This document shows, in pieces, positions 53,302-58,058 of a stretch of 64,000 bases of DNA (positions are counted from its first letter, which is position 1; the number at the start of each line of letters is the position of its first letter). Source of the DNA: a virus; IMG/VR virus record IMGVR_UViG_3300046799_000011, positions 47,670 through 111,669 of that record; one strand, given 5' to 3'. The notes beneath the pieces are model-generated. The model had not been told where the DNA came from, did no database searches, and saw only the letters and a list, made by a program, of their open reading frames with translations. The position numbers and the translations under genes are program-made.

Positions 53302-53305
53302 ATTG

Positions 53306-53383
53306 TGGATCTGCTCGGAATCGAACCGAGGTCCGAAGAAGTTCCGCGTGCGGCCTTAATCTTCGTCGAAACCTACCAAACCC
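53306..53383 (-). ncRNA. minimal tmRNA-like RNA (tRNA-like domain only)
   Basis: 5' GGGTTTGGTAGGTTTCGAC and 3' GGACCTCGGTTCGATTCCGAGCAGATCCA match tmRNA termini; G3:U70, A73; only about 30 nt between them. Confidence 0.8.
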
Positions 53384-54642: not shown

Positions 54643-55191
54643 TTACTTAACTTGACTGGCTAACATGCTGTAGTTCTTCAACCTTAGCAGGTACTTAGTC
54701 AAACGTCCAGGAGTTACTAGGTGTGGAGGATAATCCGTAAGAAGTACTCCAGCATCCGCATAATCCTTGGCTACTAGCTGAGAACAGATAAGGTGCTTAG
54801 AGCTTAACACATAGTTAGCAATTCCGGGATGGCGTACGCCTACACGGTAGGATGCTATGGCTAGGTAGTCCAGGAAGCTATAGGGCGTACCAACTTGGCT
54901 GACGGCTGTCTCTACTATCGCAGTGCGCTGTTCCTCTGTCAAGGGGATCAAACCACTAGACCACATGACTGGGCGACCATCGTATTCATCTAACTGAGTA
55001 ATACGTGCTCCACCAGGTTCGGCTTCTACGATCTGGCCATTACCGATGTAAACAAAGGCATGTTCATAGTCGAAGTAGCCATCTCCGTTTAGCCATTGGC
55101 ATAAACGTATTAACCAGCCTACACCACCTTGAATGGATACTAAACCGAAGTCTCCCGGAATAGGTAGAAGAGGTGAACTCATGCTTGACAC
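54643..55191 (-). CDS. permuted NlpC/P60 (YaeF/YiiX-like) amidase
   Basis: PGD...EHAFVY...VEAEP...GTPYS...ICSQLV...TPG (His before Cys). Confidence 0.85.
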   Translation of the reverse strand: MSSMSSPLLPIPGDFGLVSIQGGVGWLIRLCQWLNGDGYFDYEHAFVYIGNGQIVEAEPGGARITQLDEYDGRPVMWSSGLIPLTEEQRTAIVETAVSQVGTPYSFLDYLAIASYRVGVRHPGIANYVLSSKHLICSQLVAKDYADAGVLLTDYPPHLVTPGRLTKYLLRLKNYSMLASQVK

Positions 55192-55532: not shown

Positions 55533-55600
55533 TGGAGCCACGGGGAATCGAACCCCGCTGGAGTTGCTTGCAAAGCATCTGTGTCACCTTGACCAGCCCC
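55533..55600 (-). tRNA. tRNA-Ala(TGC), shortened D arm
   Basis: G3:U70; TGC anticodon; 68 nt. Confidence 0.8.
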
Positions 55601-55649: not shown

Positions 55650-57245
55650 TTACCAGAAGATCTTGCCGTTGGCAAACTCCCATGGCCACTTCTGGCTCTG
55701 ACCTGCTTCCAGCAAAGGAATCATCTGGAAGCCCTTGTCAGTCAGTCCTCCGAAGGTGTGACGCTTCTTAGAACCGGACTCACTCTGACCCACACGATAC
55801 CCTTCCAAGTTCCAAGTGTACACCGGAGTGCTAACCGGAACAGACGCTAGCGGATCTCCACCCCAACCGTTGCACTGCTCATCCGTGACGATGATAACAC
55901 GGTCATGACCCTTGAAGCTACCCTTAACCGCCGCAGCGGTATCAGTGCCGCCCATGTCACGGAACTTATCCATCATCGGAAGAAGAGAATCACCCTTTCG
56001 GAATGAAACCTTCTCAAAACCCACTCCACGCCAAGGAGAACCAAACTGAACCAGATCCGCACTCTCGGCACGAAGCGCAAGCGCAGAACCGAAGATAGCA
56101 GCCTTGTCAGCCATAGTCAACTCGGAATCGGTACGGTGATGCTGGAACATAGAACCGGAACGGTCAACCAGGATCAGAGTACGTCCAGCCAGGGACGGAA
56201 CGTTACTCAGAGATGCATTAAGAGCTTCCTCAAGTGCCGCAGCAATCTTAAGGTTACCCTTATTGGCCTGGTAAGCCGCAAGGTAACGGAATGGGAACTG
56301 CTTACCCTTTGCTACCTGCTCAGGATCAGAGATCTTAGCCAGAACGAACTTCATAGTAGCGCTAGATACGCGTGCATCCGCAATGTTACGCAGGTTACGC
56401 AGCAGAGCCATGTGTCCCATGTTCGGAATAACAGCAGTCCAAGCCTGAGTATCCATAGGGCCCTGAAGCCATCCGGACAGAGCTTCCCACGTCATACCTG
56501 CACGTGACAGAGTCTGCATACCTGCCTGAGTACCAATAAGCTGCTTACGCTTCTCAACTGGTGCAGACATCAGATTAGCACGAGTGCTGATCATGTCAAG
56601 ACTCTGAGGAACACTAATGGCATTACCATAACGGCGGTCAAGAGCGTACTTGAATAGGTCATTCTGCTTAGCATCGTTAGCTTCTACGTGAGCAAGCTGG
56701 ATAACGTCAGCAAAACGGAATGCCTTATCCGTGTCGTACTTCAGAAGAGAATACTCGTTGTACAGCTTACGCGCACCATCCTCAACACCCTTCTTGACAG
56801 CCGCAGGGATGTTCTTGCCGTACTTAGAAGTCCAGTACGCAAGGAACTCACCCGGCTCATCGGCACGGGCCATAGAAGCCGCTACAAGGGCCCTAGGAAC
56901 GCCTGGGACATGCCCAGAGTCCAGAAGTGCCTTAACACCTTCCGCAGCCGCTACAATCGACGCTGAGCGCATGAATGCCTCATTACGCAGCCAGCCGACA
57001 AAGCCTAGGAACCAAGCGGAGTCCTGAACAGCAACTTCGCGTACCAGAGAGGAAAAACGGTCATCCCGGCTCTTGGCCTTCTCGTAGAAGGTATCCTGGC
57101 CAACCATGTTGGCAACAGCCAGCAAAAACAGCTCACTCTTCTTCTCACGCTCGAACCCTGCCTTGAACTCAGCATTCAGAGCAGACTTAGTGGACTTGAC
57201 AGGGGAAGTTACCCCCAACTTTACTGCCTGATTGAACTTTGCCAT
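55650..57245 (-). CDS. rsr: Ro60/Rsr TROVE-domain RNA-binding protein with vWA domain
   Basis: ELFLLAVANMVGQDTFYE; WLRNEAFMRS; MTWEALSGW; MALLRNLRN; QFPFRYLAAY; MIDAS DRSGSM, GGTD, VTDEQ. Confidence 0.95.
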   Translation of the reverse strand: MAKFNQAVKLGVTSPVKSTKSALNAEFKAGFEREKKSELFLLAVANMVGQDTFYEKAKSRDDRFSSLVREVAVQDSAWFLGFVGWLRNEAFMRSASIVAAAEGVKALLDSGHVPGVPRALVAASMARADEPGEFLAYWTSKYGKNIPAAVKKGVEDGARKLYNEYSLLKYDTDKAFRFADVIQLAHVEANDAKQNDLFKYALDRRYGNAISVPQSLDMISTRANLMSAPVEKRKQLIGTQAGMQTLSRAGMTWEALSGWLQGPMDTQAWTAVIPNMGHMALLRNLRNIADARVSSATMKFVLAKISDPEQVAKGKQFPFRYLAAYQANKGNLKIAAALEEALNASLSNVPSLAGRTLILVDRSGSMFQHHRTDSELTMADKAAIFGSALALRAESADLVQFGSPWRGVGFEKVSFRKGDSLLPMMDKFRDMGGTDTAAAVKGSFKGHDRVIIVTDEQCNGWGGDPLASVPVSTPVYTWNLEGYRVGQSESGSKKRHTFGGLTDKGFQMIPLLEAGQSQKWPWEFANGKIFW

Positions 57246-57281
57246 TACTGCCTCCTTTGTAGTGTGGTACGTCAATAAGTC

Positions 57282-57315
57282 AAAATAAAACCCACCAGTA
57301 TCGGAATACGGTGGG
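57282..57315 (-). terminator. hairpin plus U-tract between the Y RNA array and rsr
   Basis: CCCACCGTATTCCGATACTGGTGGG followed by TTTTATTTT. Confidence 0.6.
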
Positions 57316-57326
57316 TATCAAAAATA

Positions 57327-57435
57327 AATACCTAGAAATAACGGTTTGAGGTGTATAGGCCCCATGCCTTAAGGGGATTCGAACCCCATGGTTTCATTAG
57401 CAATTGAAGTAACCCCATACCAACGCATCGGTATT
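57327..57435 (-). ncRNA. Y RNA-like unit 4 (T-arm mimic)
   Basis: AATACC/GGTATT closing stem; CGATGCG, GTTACTTC, TTTCTAG; GGGG TTCGAAT CCCC. Confidence 0.8.
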
Positions 57436-57444
57436 GTAAATTTA

Positions 57445-57520
57445 TTACCCTAGAAAAAGTCGCATACAGTGTCTTGTATTCCATAATGAGTGAAGTAACT
57501 GTTTGCTGCGCATCGGGTAA
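57445..57520 (-). ncRNA. Y RNA-like unit 3 (minimal, no tRNA-like insert)
   Basis: TTACCC/GGGTAA stem; CGATGCG, GTTACTTC, TTTCTAG. Confidence 0.75.
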
Positions 57521-57538
57521 AGCTTATTTAATTATAAA

Positions 57539-57646
57539 AGCCTAGAAATAGCGACCAAGGAAAGGGCACCAGCCCATAGGCGTTGGAATCGAACCTTCGC
57601 CCTCATATTGTTGGTTGAGGAAGTAACCCTAGTCTTCGCATCGGCT
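57539..57646 (-). ncRNA. Y RNA-like unit 2 (T-loop mimic)
   Basis: AGCC/GGCT stem; CGATGCGAAG, GTTACTTC, TTTCTAG; GGTTCGATTCC. Confidence 0.8.
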
Positions 57647-57658
57647 ATTAAGTTTTAA

Positions 57659-57800
57659 GACAACTAGAAAGAGCGATAAAAGTGCTATTATCTGACCGGT
57701 GCTCTGCCACTGAGCTATCAACCATCGAATTGGCTGAGAAGGATTCGAACCTTCGACACTCGGTTCCCTGTGAAGTATCTCTTATCTTCGCATCGTTGTC
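57659..57800 (-). ncRNA. yrlA: YrlA-like Y RNA (unit 1) with full permuted tRNA-like domain
   Basis: GACAAC/GTTGTC stem; T arm GAAGG TTCGAAT CCTTC, then closed acceptor TCAGCCA/TGGTTGA, then D arm GCTC AGTGGCA GAGC; next to rsr. Confidence 0.88.
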
Positions 57801-57808
57801 AAATCTAA

Positions 57809-57913
57809 TTGGTAAGTCGTAGCATCCCGGACTCAAACCGGGGCGACGAATCTGCGGACTCGTACTCTATCCCTGAGTTAATACTACGAGACCTTACGAT
57901 CTCGACTTACCAA
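57809..57913 (-). ncRNA. tRNA-like RNA embedded in an extra three-way junction
   Basis: TTGGTAAGTC/GACTTACCAA outer stem, GAGATC-GTAA-GGTCTC hairpin, tRNA core with abnormal anticodon loop. Confidence 0.65.
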
Positions 57914-58028: not shown

Positions 58029-58058
58029 ATACTACCAGAGGTTGTTAATCTCTGTCAA
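58029..58058 (-). promoter_or_regulatory. promoter for the tRNA-Asn/Y RNA cluster
   Basis: TTGACA-18-TAGTAT. Confidence 0.7.

What the first reader, a model, noticed from the sequence alone, without database searches (positions are those of the whole stretch)
55650..57800. Phage Ro60 gene with a tandem array of four modular Y RNAs: constant handle, swappable tRNA-mimic insert
Seen in sequence: four consecutive 76-142 nt units (57659-57800, 57539-57646, 57445-57520, 57327-57435; minus strand) sit directly upstream of a TROVE/Ro60 gene. Each has a terminal stem whose sequence differs but still pairs (GACAAC/GTTGTC, AGCC/GGCT, TTACCC/GGGTAA, AATACC/GGTATT). All share CGATGCG near the 5' end, G(T/A)TACTTC internally and TTTCTAG near the 3' end. 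The interiors differ. Unit 1 has a complete permuted tRNA mimic (T arm, closed acceptor stem, D arm). Units 2 and 4 keep only a T-loop hairpin in different contexts. Unit 3 has none. Established: bacterial Ro60 (Rsr) binds Y RNAs; YrlA RNAs have this T-acceptor-D permuted domain; Y RNA can tether Ro60 to effectors such as PNPase; some phages encode Ro60 and YrlA. Inference: this phage encodes a diversified repertoire of Ro60 adaptors or decoys, one protein with four interchangeable RNA effector domains. These could redirect Ro60 to different host RNA enzymes or act as decoys for tRNA-targeting defences. I am not aware of such an array being characterised.
Basis: partly seen in the sequence, partly recalled or inferred. 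Interest (0 to 1): 0.92.

Follow-up and report, generated by a model that had tools for sequence, protein, structure and literature searches.

The report
Four Y RNAs beside phage Ro60
A Streptomyces-type phage carries four small structured RNA genes in a row in front of its gene for the ring-shaped RNA-binding protein Ro60; they are very probably that protein's partner "Y RNAs", a known kind of particle that the phage's likely hosts also encode, here as a slightly larger, unannotated set.

Summary
Four units (57659-57800, 57539-57646, 57445-57520, 57327-57435, minus strand) share one handle. It runs: closing stem S1, loop GAUGCG-N-A, second stem S2, single-stranded UACUUC, variable interior, then UUU(N)CUA back into S1. 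Both stems covary strongly.

A covariance model of the handle finds exactly these four sites in the 111.7-kb phage genome. In five other complete actinophage genomes all 19 hits lie within about 0.7 kb of the Ro60 gene, on its strand.

The same RNA family sits upstream of chromosomal rsr (Ro60) in Streptomyces and relatives: 168 hits in 71 loci, one to four units per locus by a separate motif count. The array is therefore not a phage invention. The Ro60-Y RNA module resembles an actinobacterial one, grown to 4-5 units in BRock-like phages and embedded in their tRNA cluster.

Unit 1 is a YrlA-type permuted tRNA mimic. Units 2 and 4 keep only a T arm, and unit 3 has none. Modules are gained and lost between phages, but the units are orthologous positional classes, not freely swapped cassettes.

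The decoy idea has no support, because no unit has an anticodon arm. Ro60 binding and expression as discrete RNAs remain untested.

This scan found the same family earlier on other DNA. Verdict: real, a new member of a known kind, moderate interest.

The parts
58029..58058 (-). Sigma-70-like promoter (TTGACA-18-TAGTAT, TG before -10) between tRNA-Trp and tRNA-Asn; candidate start of the transcript that carries tRNA-Asn, the tRNA-like element and the Y RNA array
   Evidence: Consensus scan, 10 of 12 matches. This is a pattern match only.
57659..57800 (-). Unit 1 / class A: YrlA-type Y RNA. Handle plus permuted tRNA mimic (short V hairpin, T arm, 7-bp acceptor-like stem closed by a loop, D arm)
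   Evidence: Rfam YrlA 35.1 bits, E 2.3e-5. Consensus fold of six orthologues has 12 pairs with compensatory changes. Handle model R2 gives 54.4 bits, E 9e-12, although this copy was not in the training set.
57539..57646 (-). Unit 2 / class B: handle plus three small hairpins, the middle one an imperfect T-arm look-alike
   Evidence: R1 39.4 bits, R2 68.9 bits, class alignment, fold.
57445..57520 (-). Unit 3 / class C: minimal Y RNA, made of the handle plus one short hairpin, with no tRNA-like part
   Evidence: R2 72.3 bits. Class alignment with covarying S2.
57327..57435 (-). Unit 4 / class D: handle plus a perfect T arm and a short hairpin. Orthologues in GiJojo, pSt2308, BRock and Alone3 carry a full second T-acceptor-D mimic
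   Evidence: R2 65.1 bits, class alignment, unit sequences.
57282..57320 (-). Hairpin followed by a U run (terminator-like) between the array and the Ro60 gene
   Evidence: Fold -15.3 kcal/mol, z -2.7. An equivalent hairpin plus U run with a different stem sequence is present in G001, G002, GiJojo, pSt2308, Alone3 and BRock.
55650..57245 (-). Ro60 (Rsr-like) protein gene, 531 aa, TROVE plus vWA with intact MIDAS residues; ATG at 57245 preceded by AGGAGG
   Evidence: Pfam TROVE 45.9 bits, VWA_2 21 bits. PDB matches 9KOP, 9L5Y, 2NVO. D361, S363, S365, T434 and D455 are invariant in nine phage Ro60s. It is 51-55% identical to chromosomal Ro60 of Streptomyces and relatives.

Best explanation
The four units are Y RNAs, the small RNA partners of the Ro60 protein encoded just downstream. 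Shown here: each RNA closes its 5' and 3' ends into stem S1. Next comes an asymmetric internal loop of conserved sequence (5' GAUGCG-N-A, 3' G-N2-3-UUU(N)CUA). Then follow a second covarying stem S2 and a conserved single-stranded UACUUC. Inferred: this handle is the Ro60 docking site. Its 5' strand resembles the GGUCCGA that Xenopus Ro60 contacts and the bacterial GNCGAAN0-1G motif. The variable interior then gives each Ro60-RNA particle a different surface: a full permuted tRNA mimic in unit 1, a T arm only in units 2 and 4, a bare hairpin in unit 3. As in Deinococcus, Salmonella and Thermus phage phiLo, that surface would tether or gate Ro60 towards host partners such as PNPase or enzymes that recognise tRNA. 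Also inferred: the RNAs are made as part of the phage tRNA transcript, cut out by host RNases, and end at the hairpin plus U run before the Ro60 gene. Ro60 may be translated from read-through or from its own promoter. The module resembles the actinobacterial rsr locus, which carries the same RNA family in tandem. BRock-like phages have expanded it to 4-5 units with a phage-specific handle variant.
For: The handle motif occurs 4 times against 0 expected. S1: cognate ends form 4.56 of 5 pairs, against 2.07 for non-cognate ends. S2: cognate duplex -10.7 kcal/mol, against -5.2 for non-cognate. For classes A and C, a phage's own partner pairs 4-5 kcal/mol better than the same class from another phage. 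On 31 distinct sequences, 91.6% of cells pair against 59.5% in shuffles. 13 of 14 pairs show double changes, and slid controls give 34-50%. Specificity: R2 finds only the four units in the 111.7-kb genome. All 19 hits in 685 kb of five other phage genomes lie beside Ro60 on its strand. All 168 hits in 71 bacterial loci lie 10-560 nt upstream of rsr on its strand. The only two hits found in a 10-Mb Streptomyces scabiei genome are at rsr, though only 150 of about 1,470 candidates were scored. Unit 1 matches YrlA about as well as the mycobacteriophage Bxz1 RNA at the position where YrlA-like RNAs were published (32.5 bits). Published precedent: at least two Rsr-bound Y RNAs per species, encoded next to rsr and cut from one precursor in M. 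smegmatis, with YrlB also carrying a T arm (PMC4201824). Phage phiLo Ro60 binds two upstream Yrl RNAs and forms a complex with PNPase (PMC12135203).
Against: There are no expression, processing or binding data for any of these RNAs. Only unit 1 matches an Rfam Y RNA model, and it scores below the gathering threshold. The metazoan Y_RNA model gave no hit at E<=10. Single-sequence folds are not better than shuffles. The alignment used for the pair counts was fitted to the model's structure, which biases it towards that structure. A sigma-70-like match (TTGACA-17-GATACT) overlaps the 5' handle of unit 1. If it is active, some transcripts would lack that handle. Distinct partners for each interior are pure inference.
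Confidence: 0.82

Rival explanations
1. The units are decayed or rearranged tRNA genes, that is, debris of the phage tRNA cluster with no function of their own.
For: They lie inside a cluster of more than 25 tRNA genes. Three units contain T-arm sequences. Annotators of related phages called parts of class D units tRNA-Arg(cct) and tRNA-Ser(gct).
Against: Unit 3 has no tRNA part yet has the best handle score. The non-tRNA handle is the conserved part, with compensatory changes. The family follows Ro60, not tRNA clusters, including in bacterial chromosomes where no tRNA cluster is nearby. ARAGORN and the Rfam tRNA model call none of the four units.
Confidence: 0.03
2. The array is a cis-acting leader of the Ro60 mRNA: repeated Ro60 binding sites that let the protein control its own synthesis, rather than free-standing RNAs.
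For: It is always on the Ro60 strand and immediately upstream. In bacteria the last unit ends 10-60 nt before rsr. A conserved ACGTACCAC motif sits between the array and the Ro60 ribosome-binding site in all BRock-like phages.
Against: A conserved hairpin plus U run separates the array from Ro60 in every BRock-like phage. In Atuin four of the five units lie downstream of Ro60. In M. smegmatis the RNAs upstream of rsr accumulate as discrete Rsr-bound species (PMC4201824). The two roles do not exclude each other.
Confidence: 0.08
3. The RNAs are decoys that soak up host tRNA-targeting defence nucleases or tRNA-modifying toxins, and Ro60 merely stabilises them.
For: tRNA-like elbows are present: T plus D arms in unit 1, T arms in units 2 and 4. 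Phages are known to counter tRNA-directed defences, and this phage invests heavily in tRNAs.
Against: No unit has an anticodon stem-loop, which is the target of anticodon nucleases. The acceptor end is closed by a loop, so there is no free CCA end. Unit 3 and class B of several relatives have no tRNA-like part. The same RNA family is chromosomal in the likely host genus, where a phage-decoy role makes no sense.
Confidence: 0.05

Closest known systems
Mycobacterium smegmatis YrlA and YrlB with Rsr (Chen et al. 2014, PMC4201824)
   Same: Actinobacterial Ro60 with more than one Y RNA encoded directly upstream on the same strand and cut from one precursor. One RNA is a permuted tRNA mimic with a 7-bp acceptor-like stem, and the other carries only a T arm. 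There is a short conserved motif near the 5' end next to the terminal stem.
   Different: Two RNAs there, four here (five in the nearest relatives). I could not test whether the M. smegmatis RNAs match my handle model, because no named locus was on hand. A Rhodococcus rsr locus does match, with two units. Binding is shown there and only inferred here.
Chromosomal rsr loci of Streptomyces, Kitasatospora, Actinomadura and Nonomuraea
   Same: Same handle architecture: S1, conserved loop, covarying S2, UACUUC, U-rich 3' strand. Tandem sets of one to four units sit just upstream of a Ro60 that is 51-55% identical to the phage protein.
   Different: The host handle reads (C/A)GGUGCG(C/A)AG ... GAUCUC(G/U). 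The phage handle reads CGAUGCG-N-AG ... UUUCUAG. Host sets usually have 2-3 units and are not inside a tRNA cluster.
YrlA family, Rfam RF02553, including YrlA-like RNAs of mycobacteriophages such as Bxz1
   Same: Unit 1 has the T arm, closed acceptor and D arm order, and matches the whole model. Bxz1 carries two stem-closed units upstream of its Ro60, with GCCGA(A/G)G near the 5' end and GGUUAYC after the second stem.
   Different: Scores are below the Rfam gathering threshold: 35.1 here, 32.5 for Bxz1, against 69. My handle model does not hit Bxz1, so the two phage lineages carry different handle variants. Units 2-4 are not YrlA.
Thermus phage phiLo Ro60 with Yrl1 and Yrl2 (PMC12135203; PDB 9KOP, 9L5Y)
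   Same: A phage-encoded Ro60 with partner RNAs directly upstream. This is the best PDB match of the window's protein (E 3e-20). The paper reports a ternary complex with host PNPase.
   Different: Two RNAs, no tRNA mimic reported, an unrelated host and only distant protein similarity.
Vertebrate Y RNAs (up to four per species)
   Same: One Ro60 serves several RNAs that share a Ro-binding terminal stem and differ in the loop that binds other proteins. The Ro-contacted 5' strand GGUCCGA resembles GAUGCGA here and GGUGCGA in Streptomyces.
   Different: The Rfam Y_RNA model gives no hit at E<=10. Those RNAs are polymerase III genes without tRNA-like domains. Further likeness that I recall from memory was not tested: an upper stem followed by GUUAUC, and a 3' strand UUGACUAG.

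Membership tests
Ro60 / Rsr protein (TROVE plus vWA ring) | TROVE domain | tested here: met
   Pfam PF05731, 45.9 bits against a cut-off of 23, E 5.9e-12.
Ro60 / Rsr protein (TROVE plus vWA ring) | C-terminal vWA domain with MIDAS residues (DxSxS, T, D) | tested here: met
   The VWA_2 profile scores only 21 bits against a cut-off of 27. However D361, S363, S365, T434 and D455 are invariant across nine phage Ro60s, and the region aligns to the vWA domain of 9L5Y.
Ro60 / Rsr protein (TROVE plus vWA ring) | Sequence homology to structurally solved Ro60 rings | tested here: met
   9L5Y and 9KOP at E 3.1e-20; Deinococcus Rsr 2NVO at E 1.7e-6.
Y RNA (Ro60 partner RNAs) | Encoded next to the Ro60 gene | tested here: met
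   The four units lie 82-555 nt upstream on the same strand. The same holds for all hits in five other phage genomes and 71 bacterial loci.
Y RNA (Ro60 partner RNAs) | 5' and 3' ends pair into a stem that carries a conserved Ro-binding motif, with a variable loop beyond it; 70-150 nt long | tested here: met
   S1 and S2 covary. The units are 76-142 nt long. The motif GAUGCG-N-AG resembles the published GGUCCGA and GNCGAAN0-1G, but the exact register of that alignment is uncertain.
Y RNA (Ro60 partner RNAs) | Physical binding to Ro60 and Ro60-dependent accumulation | not testable with these tools
   Needs co-immunoprecipitation, gel-shift assays, or Northern blots in a Ro60 deletion.
YrlA (Rfam RF02553) | Score at or above the Rfam gathering threshold | tested here: not met
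   Unit 1 scores 35.1 bits against 69; units 2-4 give no hit. The mycobacteriophage Bxz1 RNA also scores only 32.5 bits, so the threshold excludes phage members in general.
YrlA (Rfam RF02553) | Permuted tRNA-like domain: T arm, acceptor-like stem closed by a loop, D arm, joined to the Ro-binding stem through an anticodon-stem analogue | tested here: met
   Met for unit 1 only. All four helices are predicted on six orthologues, with compensatory changes in the T, acceptor-like and linking stems. Units 2-4 do not have this domain.
tRNA | Cloverleaf with anticodon arm, called by tRNA finders | tested here: not met
   Inside the four units there is no ARAGORN call and no Rfam tRNA hit at the gathering score.

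The most novel reading that the evidence does not exclude
BRock-like phages run a private Ro60 system. Their handle variant (GAUGCG ... UUUCUAG, against the host's GGUGCG ... GAUCUCG) would make the phage Y RNAs specific for the phage Ro60 and blind to the host Rsr. The expanded set of 4-5 interiors (two full tRNA mimics, T-arm-only forms, a bare hairpin) would direct that one protein to different host RNA enzymes. The purpose could be quality control of the burst of phage tRNAs made from the same transcript, or redirecting host PNPase.
Probability: 0.15. Interest if true: 0.7.

Novelty: new member of a known kind. Interest (0 to 1): 0.4.

Why it matters
The result gives a clean, covariation-backed definition of an actinobacterial and actinophage Y RNA handle that Rfam does not cover. 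It shows that several Y RNAs per Ro60, laid out in tandem, is the rule in Streptomyces and its phages rather than an oddity. It also flags database errors: Y RNA modules annotated as tRNA-Arg, tRNA-Ser or tRNA-Pro, or overlapped by small 'hypothetical protein' ORFs. Several of these phages (BRock, GiJojo, Alone3) are cultured isolates on tractable Streptomyces hosts. They offer a practical system for asking what different Y RNA interiors do for one Ro60, and whether phage and host Ro60 particles cross-talk. The finding does not reveal a new kind of system.

Tried and rejected
Only L042, L065 and L115 held credible units.

2. A single-protein scan of viral contigs found only two close relatives, both cut at the contig end. 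The arrays were recovered from the other end of those records.

3. RNAalifold on the MAFFT alignment of class A chose a wrong register for S2, pairing the purine run with the U-rich 3' loop. Anchored duplex folding gave the register that covaries.

4. I considered that the tRNA-Arg(cct) and tRNA-Ser(gct) annotated inside class D units of GiJojo and Alone3 are real tRNAs that use GAUGCG as the acceptor strand. That pairing is not kept in BRock or pSt2308, so I rejected it.

5. I looked for a link to RNA repair, as in the Salmonella rsr-yrlBA-rtcBA operon. The phage has no RtcB and no CCA-adding enzyme.

6. I tested whether the handle model also covers mycobacteriophage Bxz1. It does not, although Bxz1 has Ro60 and a YrlA-like RNA.

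7. Two Y RNA reviews (PMC10870794, PMC6047535) and the supplements of Chen et al. 2014 were not held. I therefore could not check whether Streptomyces or its phages are listed there.
Full report
**Setting.** The window is part of a complete 111,669-bp virus record with direct terminal repeats. The region lies in a minus-strand cluster of more than 25 tRNA genes. The nearest named relatives are Streptomyces phages GiJojo, pSt2308, BRock, Alone3 and LuckySocke, whose Ro60 is 63-66% identical. Two IMG/VR contigs, G001 and G002, are closer at 83%. Gene order is shared: tRNA-Trp, tRNA-Asn, an unannotated gap of about 0.6-0.7 kb, Ro60, tRNA-Ala, two tRNA-Lys.

**The protein.** The ORF at 55650-57245 (minus strand, ATG at 57245 after AGGAGG) matches Pfam TROVE above its cut-off and VWA_2 weakly. 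It matches the solved Ro60 of Thermus phage phiLo at E 3e-20 and Deinococcus Rsr at E 1.7e-6. The MIDAS residues are invariant in an alignment of nine phage Ro60s. It is a Ro60.

**The observation.**
- The 5' motif joined to WTACTTC occurs four times in 64 kb, against none in 100 shuffles.
- Unit 1 matches the whole Rfam YrlA model at 35.1 bits, E 2.3e-5, below the gathering score of 69. No Rfam RNA family (YrlA, Y_RNA, tRNA) credibly matches units 2-4; the only hit is a chance-level snoRNA match in unit 4 (E 0.7).
- Single-sequence folds are not better than shuffles, so the case rests on comparison.

**Anatomy of the handle.** Related phages carry four or five units with the same motifs in the same gap. 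Lining up 32 units gives this plan:
- S1, 3-8 bp of free sequence closed by an invariant C-G pair.
- A 5' loop GAUGCG-N-A.
- S2, 8-9 bp, which starts with G-C.
- Single-stranded UACUUC, followed by the variable interior.
- The 3' strand of S2, then a 3' loop G-N2-3-UUU(N)CUA, then the 3' strand of S1.

The 5' loop resembles the GGUCCGA contacted by Xenopus Ro60 and the bacterial GNCGAAN0-1G motif, both quoted by Chen et al. 2014. The exact register of that alignment is uncertain.

**Covariation.**
- Cognate S1 ends form 4.56 of 5 possible pairs beyond the invariant pair. Ends taken from units of another class form 2.07.
- Cognate S2 duplexes average -10.7 kcal/mol, against -5.2 for non-cognate ones.
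- Within classes A and C, a phage's own partner strand pairs 4-5 kcal/mol better than the same class from another phage. This shows compensatory change between orthologues.
- On the model-guided alignment of 31 distinct sequences, 91.6% of cells pair against 59.5% in shuffles. Of 14 pairs, 13 have double changes, and sliding the partner by 1-3 columns drops pairing to 34-50%.
- That alignment was fitted to the structure, which favours it. The anchored analysis does not depend on it.

**Positional classes.**
- Class A (unit 1) is a YrlA-type mimic. Its T arm, 7-9 bp acceptor-like stem closed by a loop, D arm and linking stem are kept, with 12 compensatory pairs.
- Class C (unit 3) is the minimal form.
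- Class B (unit 2) has an imperfect T arm in the window, G001 and G002, and none in GiJojo, pSt2308, BRock and Alone3.
- Class D (unit 4) is a second full T-acceptor-D mimic in GiJojo, pSt2308, BRock and Alone3. It has lost the D arm in the window's lineage.
- Class 0 follows tRNA-Asn in five relatives. It is absent from BRock and from the window, where a different tRNA-shaped RNA sits at that place.

Interiors therefore change by gain and loss within orthologous slots. I saw no sign of cassette exchange.

**Specificity for Ro60.**
- A covariance model built from class C (R1) found the other classes. It also found units beside Ro60 in Arthrobacter phage Atuin, Gordonia phages Rabbitrun and VanLee, and the large Streptomyces phages Quantum and Frankenweenie.
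- A second model built from those hits (R2) finds exactly the four units in the whole 111.7-kb genome. This includes unit 1, which was not in its training set.
- In five other complete phage genomes (685 kb) all 19 hits lie within about 0.7 kb of Ro60 on its strand: GiJojo 5, BRock 4, Atuin 5 (one upstream, four downstream), Rabbitrun 3, Quantum 2.

**The host side.**
- A scan of bacterial genomes with the Ro60 alignment returned chromosomal homologues at 51-55% identity in Streptomyces, Kitasatospora, Actinomadura, Nonomuraea, Actinocatenispora and Rhodococcus.
- R2 gives 168 hits in 71 of these loci. Every hit is on the Ro60 strand and 10-560 nt upstream of it.
- A separate motif-plus-stem count finds 173 units in 77 loci, one to four per locus, most often two or three. 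WTACTTC is about 860 times denser there than in the rest of the loci.
- In a 10-Mb Streptomyces scabiei genome the only two hits are at rsr, although only part of the candidates were scored.
- In an even sample of 151 genomes of the class, 13 have hits, mostly two or three clustered. Five of six sampled loci carry Ro60 next door.
- The host handle reads (C/A)GGUGCG(C/A)AG ... GAUCUC(G/U), and the phage handle reads CGAUGCG-N-AG ... UUUCUAG.

A tandem array of handle-sharing Y RNAs is thus the normal state of the actinobacterial rsr locus. The phage carries a diverged and enlarged copy. Direction of transfer was not tested with a tree.

**Expression context (inferred).** A promoter-like site lies upstream of tRNA-Asn. 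After unit 4 there is a hairpin followed by a U run. Every BRock-like relative has one at the same place, with a different stem sequence. This suggests that the array ends a tRNA/Y RNA transcript. The phage has no RtcB and no CCA-adding enzyme, so Ro60 and its RNAs stand alone.

**Literature.** Chen et al. 2014 reported YrlA-like RNAs near Ro60 in 254 bacteria and 22 phages, and at least two Y RNAs in each species studied. In M. smegmatis they found YrlA and a T-arm-bearing YrlB cut from one precursor upstream of rsr. Phage phiLo Ro60 binds two upstream Yrl RNAs and assembles with host PNPase. Searches found no paper on Y RNAs of Streptomyces or its phages in the held library. Mycobacteriophage Bxz1 has Ro60, a YrlA-like RNA at 32.5 bits and a second stem-closed unit. 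My handle model does not hit it, so it carries another handle variant.

**Earlier notes of this scan.** The same Streptomyces-phage family was reported before on other DNA, with four or five units, and was judged an expanded example of a known partnership. Similar handle-sharing arrays beside Ro60-like genes were noted in unrelated phages. I reached the same reading from my own tests. The addition here is the host-chromosome census.

**Verdict.** The main interpretation (Y RNAs for the phage Ro60) is well supported by comparative evidence but untested at the bench. The claims of free module swapping, defence decoys and an unprecedented array are not supported. It is a new member of a known kind, of moderate interest.

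Noticed in passing
window 57809-57913 (minus strand): In the slot where relatives have a fifth Y RNA (class 0), the window has a tRNA-shaped RNA (Rfam tRNA 38.2 bits, no ARAGORN call, possible GCA anticodon). It is enclosed, together with a small hairpin, by a roughly 10-bp outer stem. MFE is -45.7 kcal/mol, z -5.4. It has no Y RNA handle and is not hit by R2.
   Followed up: partly
window 55533-55600 (minus strand): Just downstream of Ro60, where relatives have a canonical tRNA-Ala(UGC), the window has a degenerate tRNA-like RNA with a shortened D arm. It keeps a UGC anticodon and a G3:U70 pair. The tRNA model scores it at only 16.8 bits, and ARAGORN does not call it.
   Followed up: partly
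L001:1269-1343, L004:1274-1347, L005:1274-1347, L009:1745-1835, L007:1224-1778: These look like annotation errors in GenBank records. tRNA-Arg(cct) of GiJojo and tRNA-Ser(gct) of Alone3 and LuckySocke lie inside class D Y RNA units. The 91-nt tRNA-Pro(tgg) of Frankenweenie overlaps a YrlA-like hit. Small 'hypothetical protein' ORFs gp92-94 of Gordonia phage Rabbitrun are overlapped by Y RNA hits.
   Followed up: partly
window 57264-57272 (minus strand) and the same place in L001-L004, L135, L136: An invariant ACGTACCAC motif lies between the terminator-like hairpin and the Ro60 ribosome-binding site in all BRock-like phages. Its function is unknown. It could be a promoter element or a regulatory site.
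   Followed up: no
window 57774-57802 (minus strand): A sigma-70-like match, TTGACA-17-GATACT, is formed by the S1 stem and the GAUACU of unit 1. Class A has an unusually constant S1 (UGACAGC in five of six phages) and alone reads GAUACUUC instead of GUUACUUC. The RNA handle may double as an internal promoter for units 2-4.
   Followed up: no
spacers 5' of each unit, e.g. window 57647-57658, 57521-57538, 57436-57444: Each unit is preceded by a short A/U-rich spacer that ends in a recurring AA(A/G)(C/U)UU-like motif. This is also seen in the relatives. It could be an RNase processing signal.
   Followed up: no
L135:1810-1973, L003:3579-3742, L004:3467-3699: Rfam manA RNA motif hits (48-55 bits, gathering score 55.2) lie among the tRNA genes: between the two tRNA-Lys genes in BRock and Alone3, and upstream of the Y RNA array in G001. 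The window has no such element: its two tRNA-Lys genes are 3 nt apart.
   Followed up: no
window 53303-53383 (minus strand): An 81-nt match to the Rfam tmRNA model (54.2 bits, gathering score 47) spans model positions 1-374. It has a tRNA-like domain with almost no mRNA-like part.
   Followed up: no
window 54643-55191 (minus strand): A 182-aa ORF inside the tRNA cluster matches Peptidase_C92, a permuted papain-like amidase of the YaeF/YiiX type (27.7 bits, cut-off 27).
   Followed up: no
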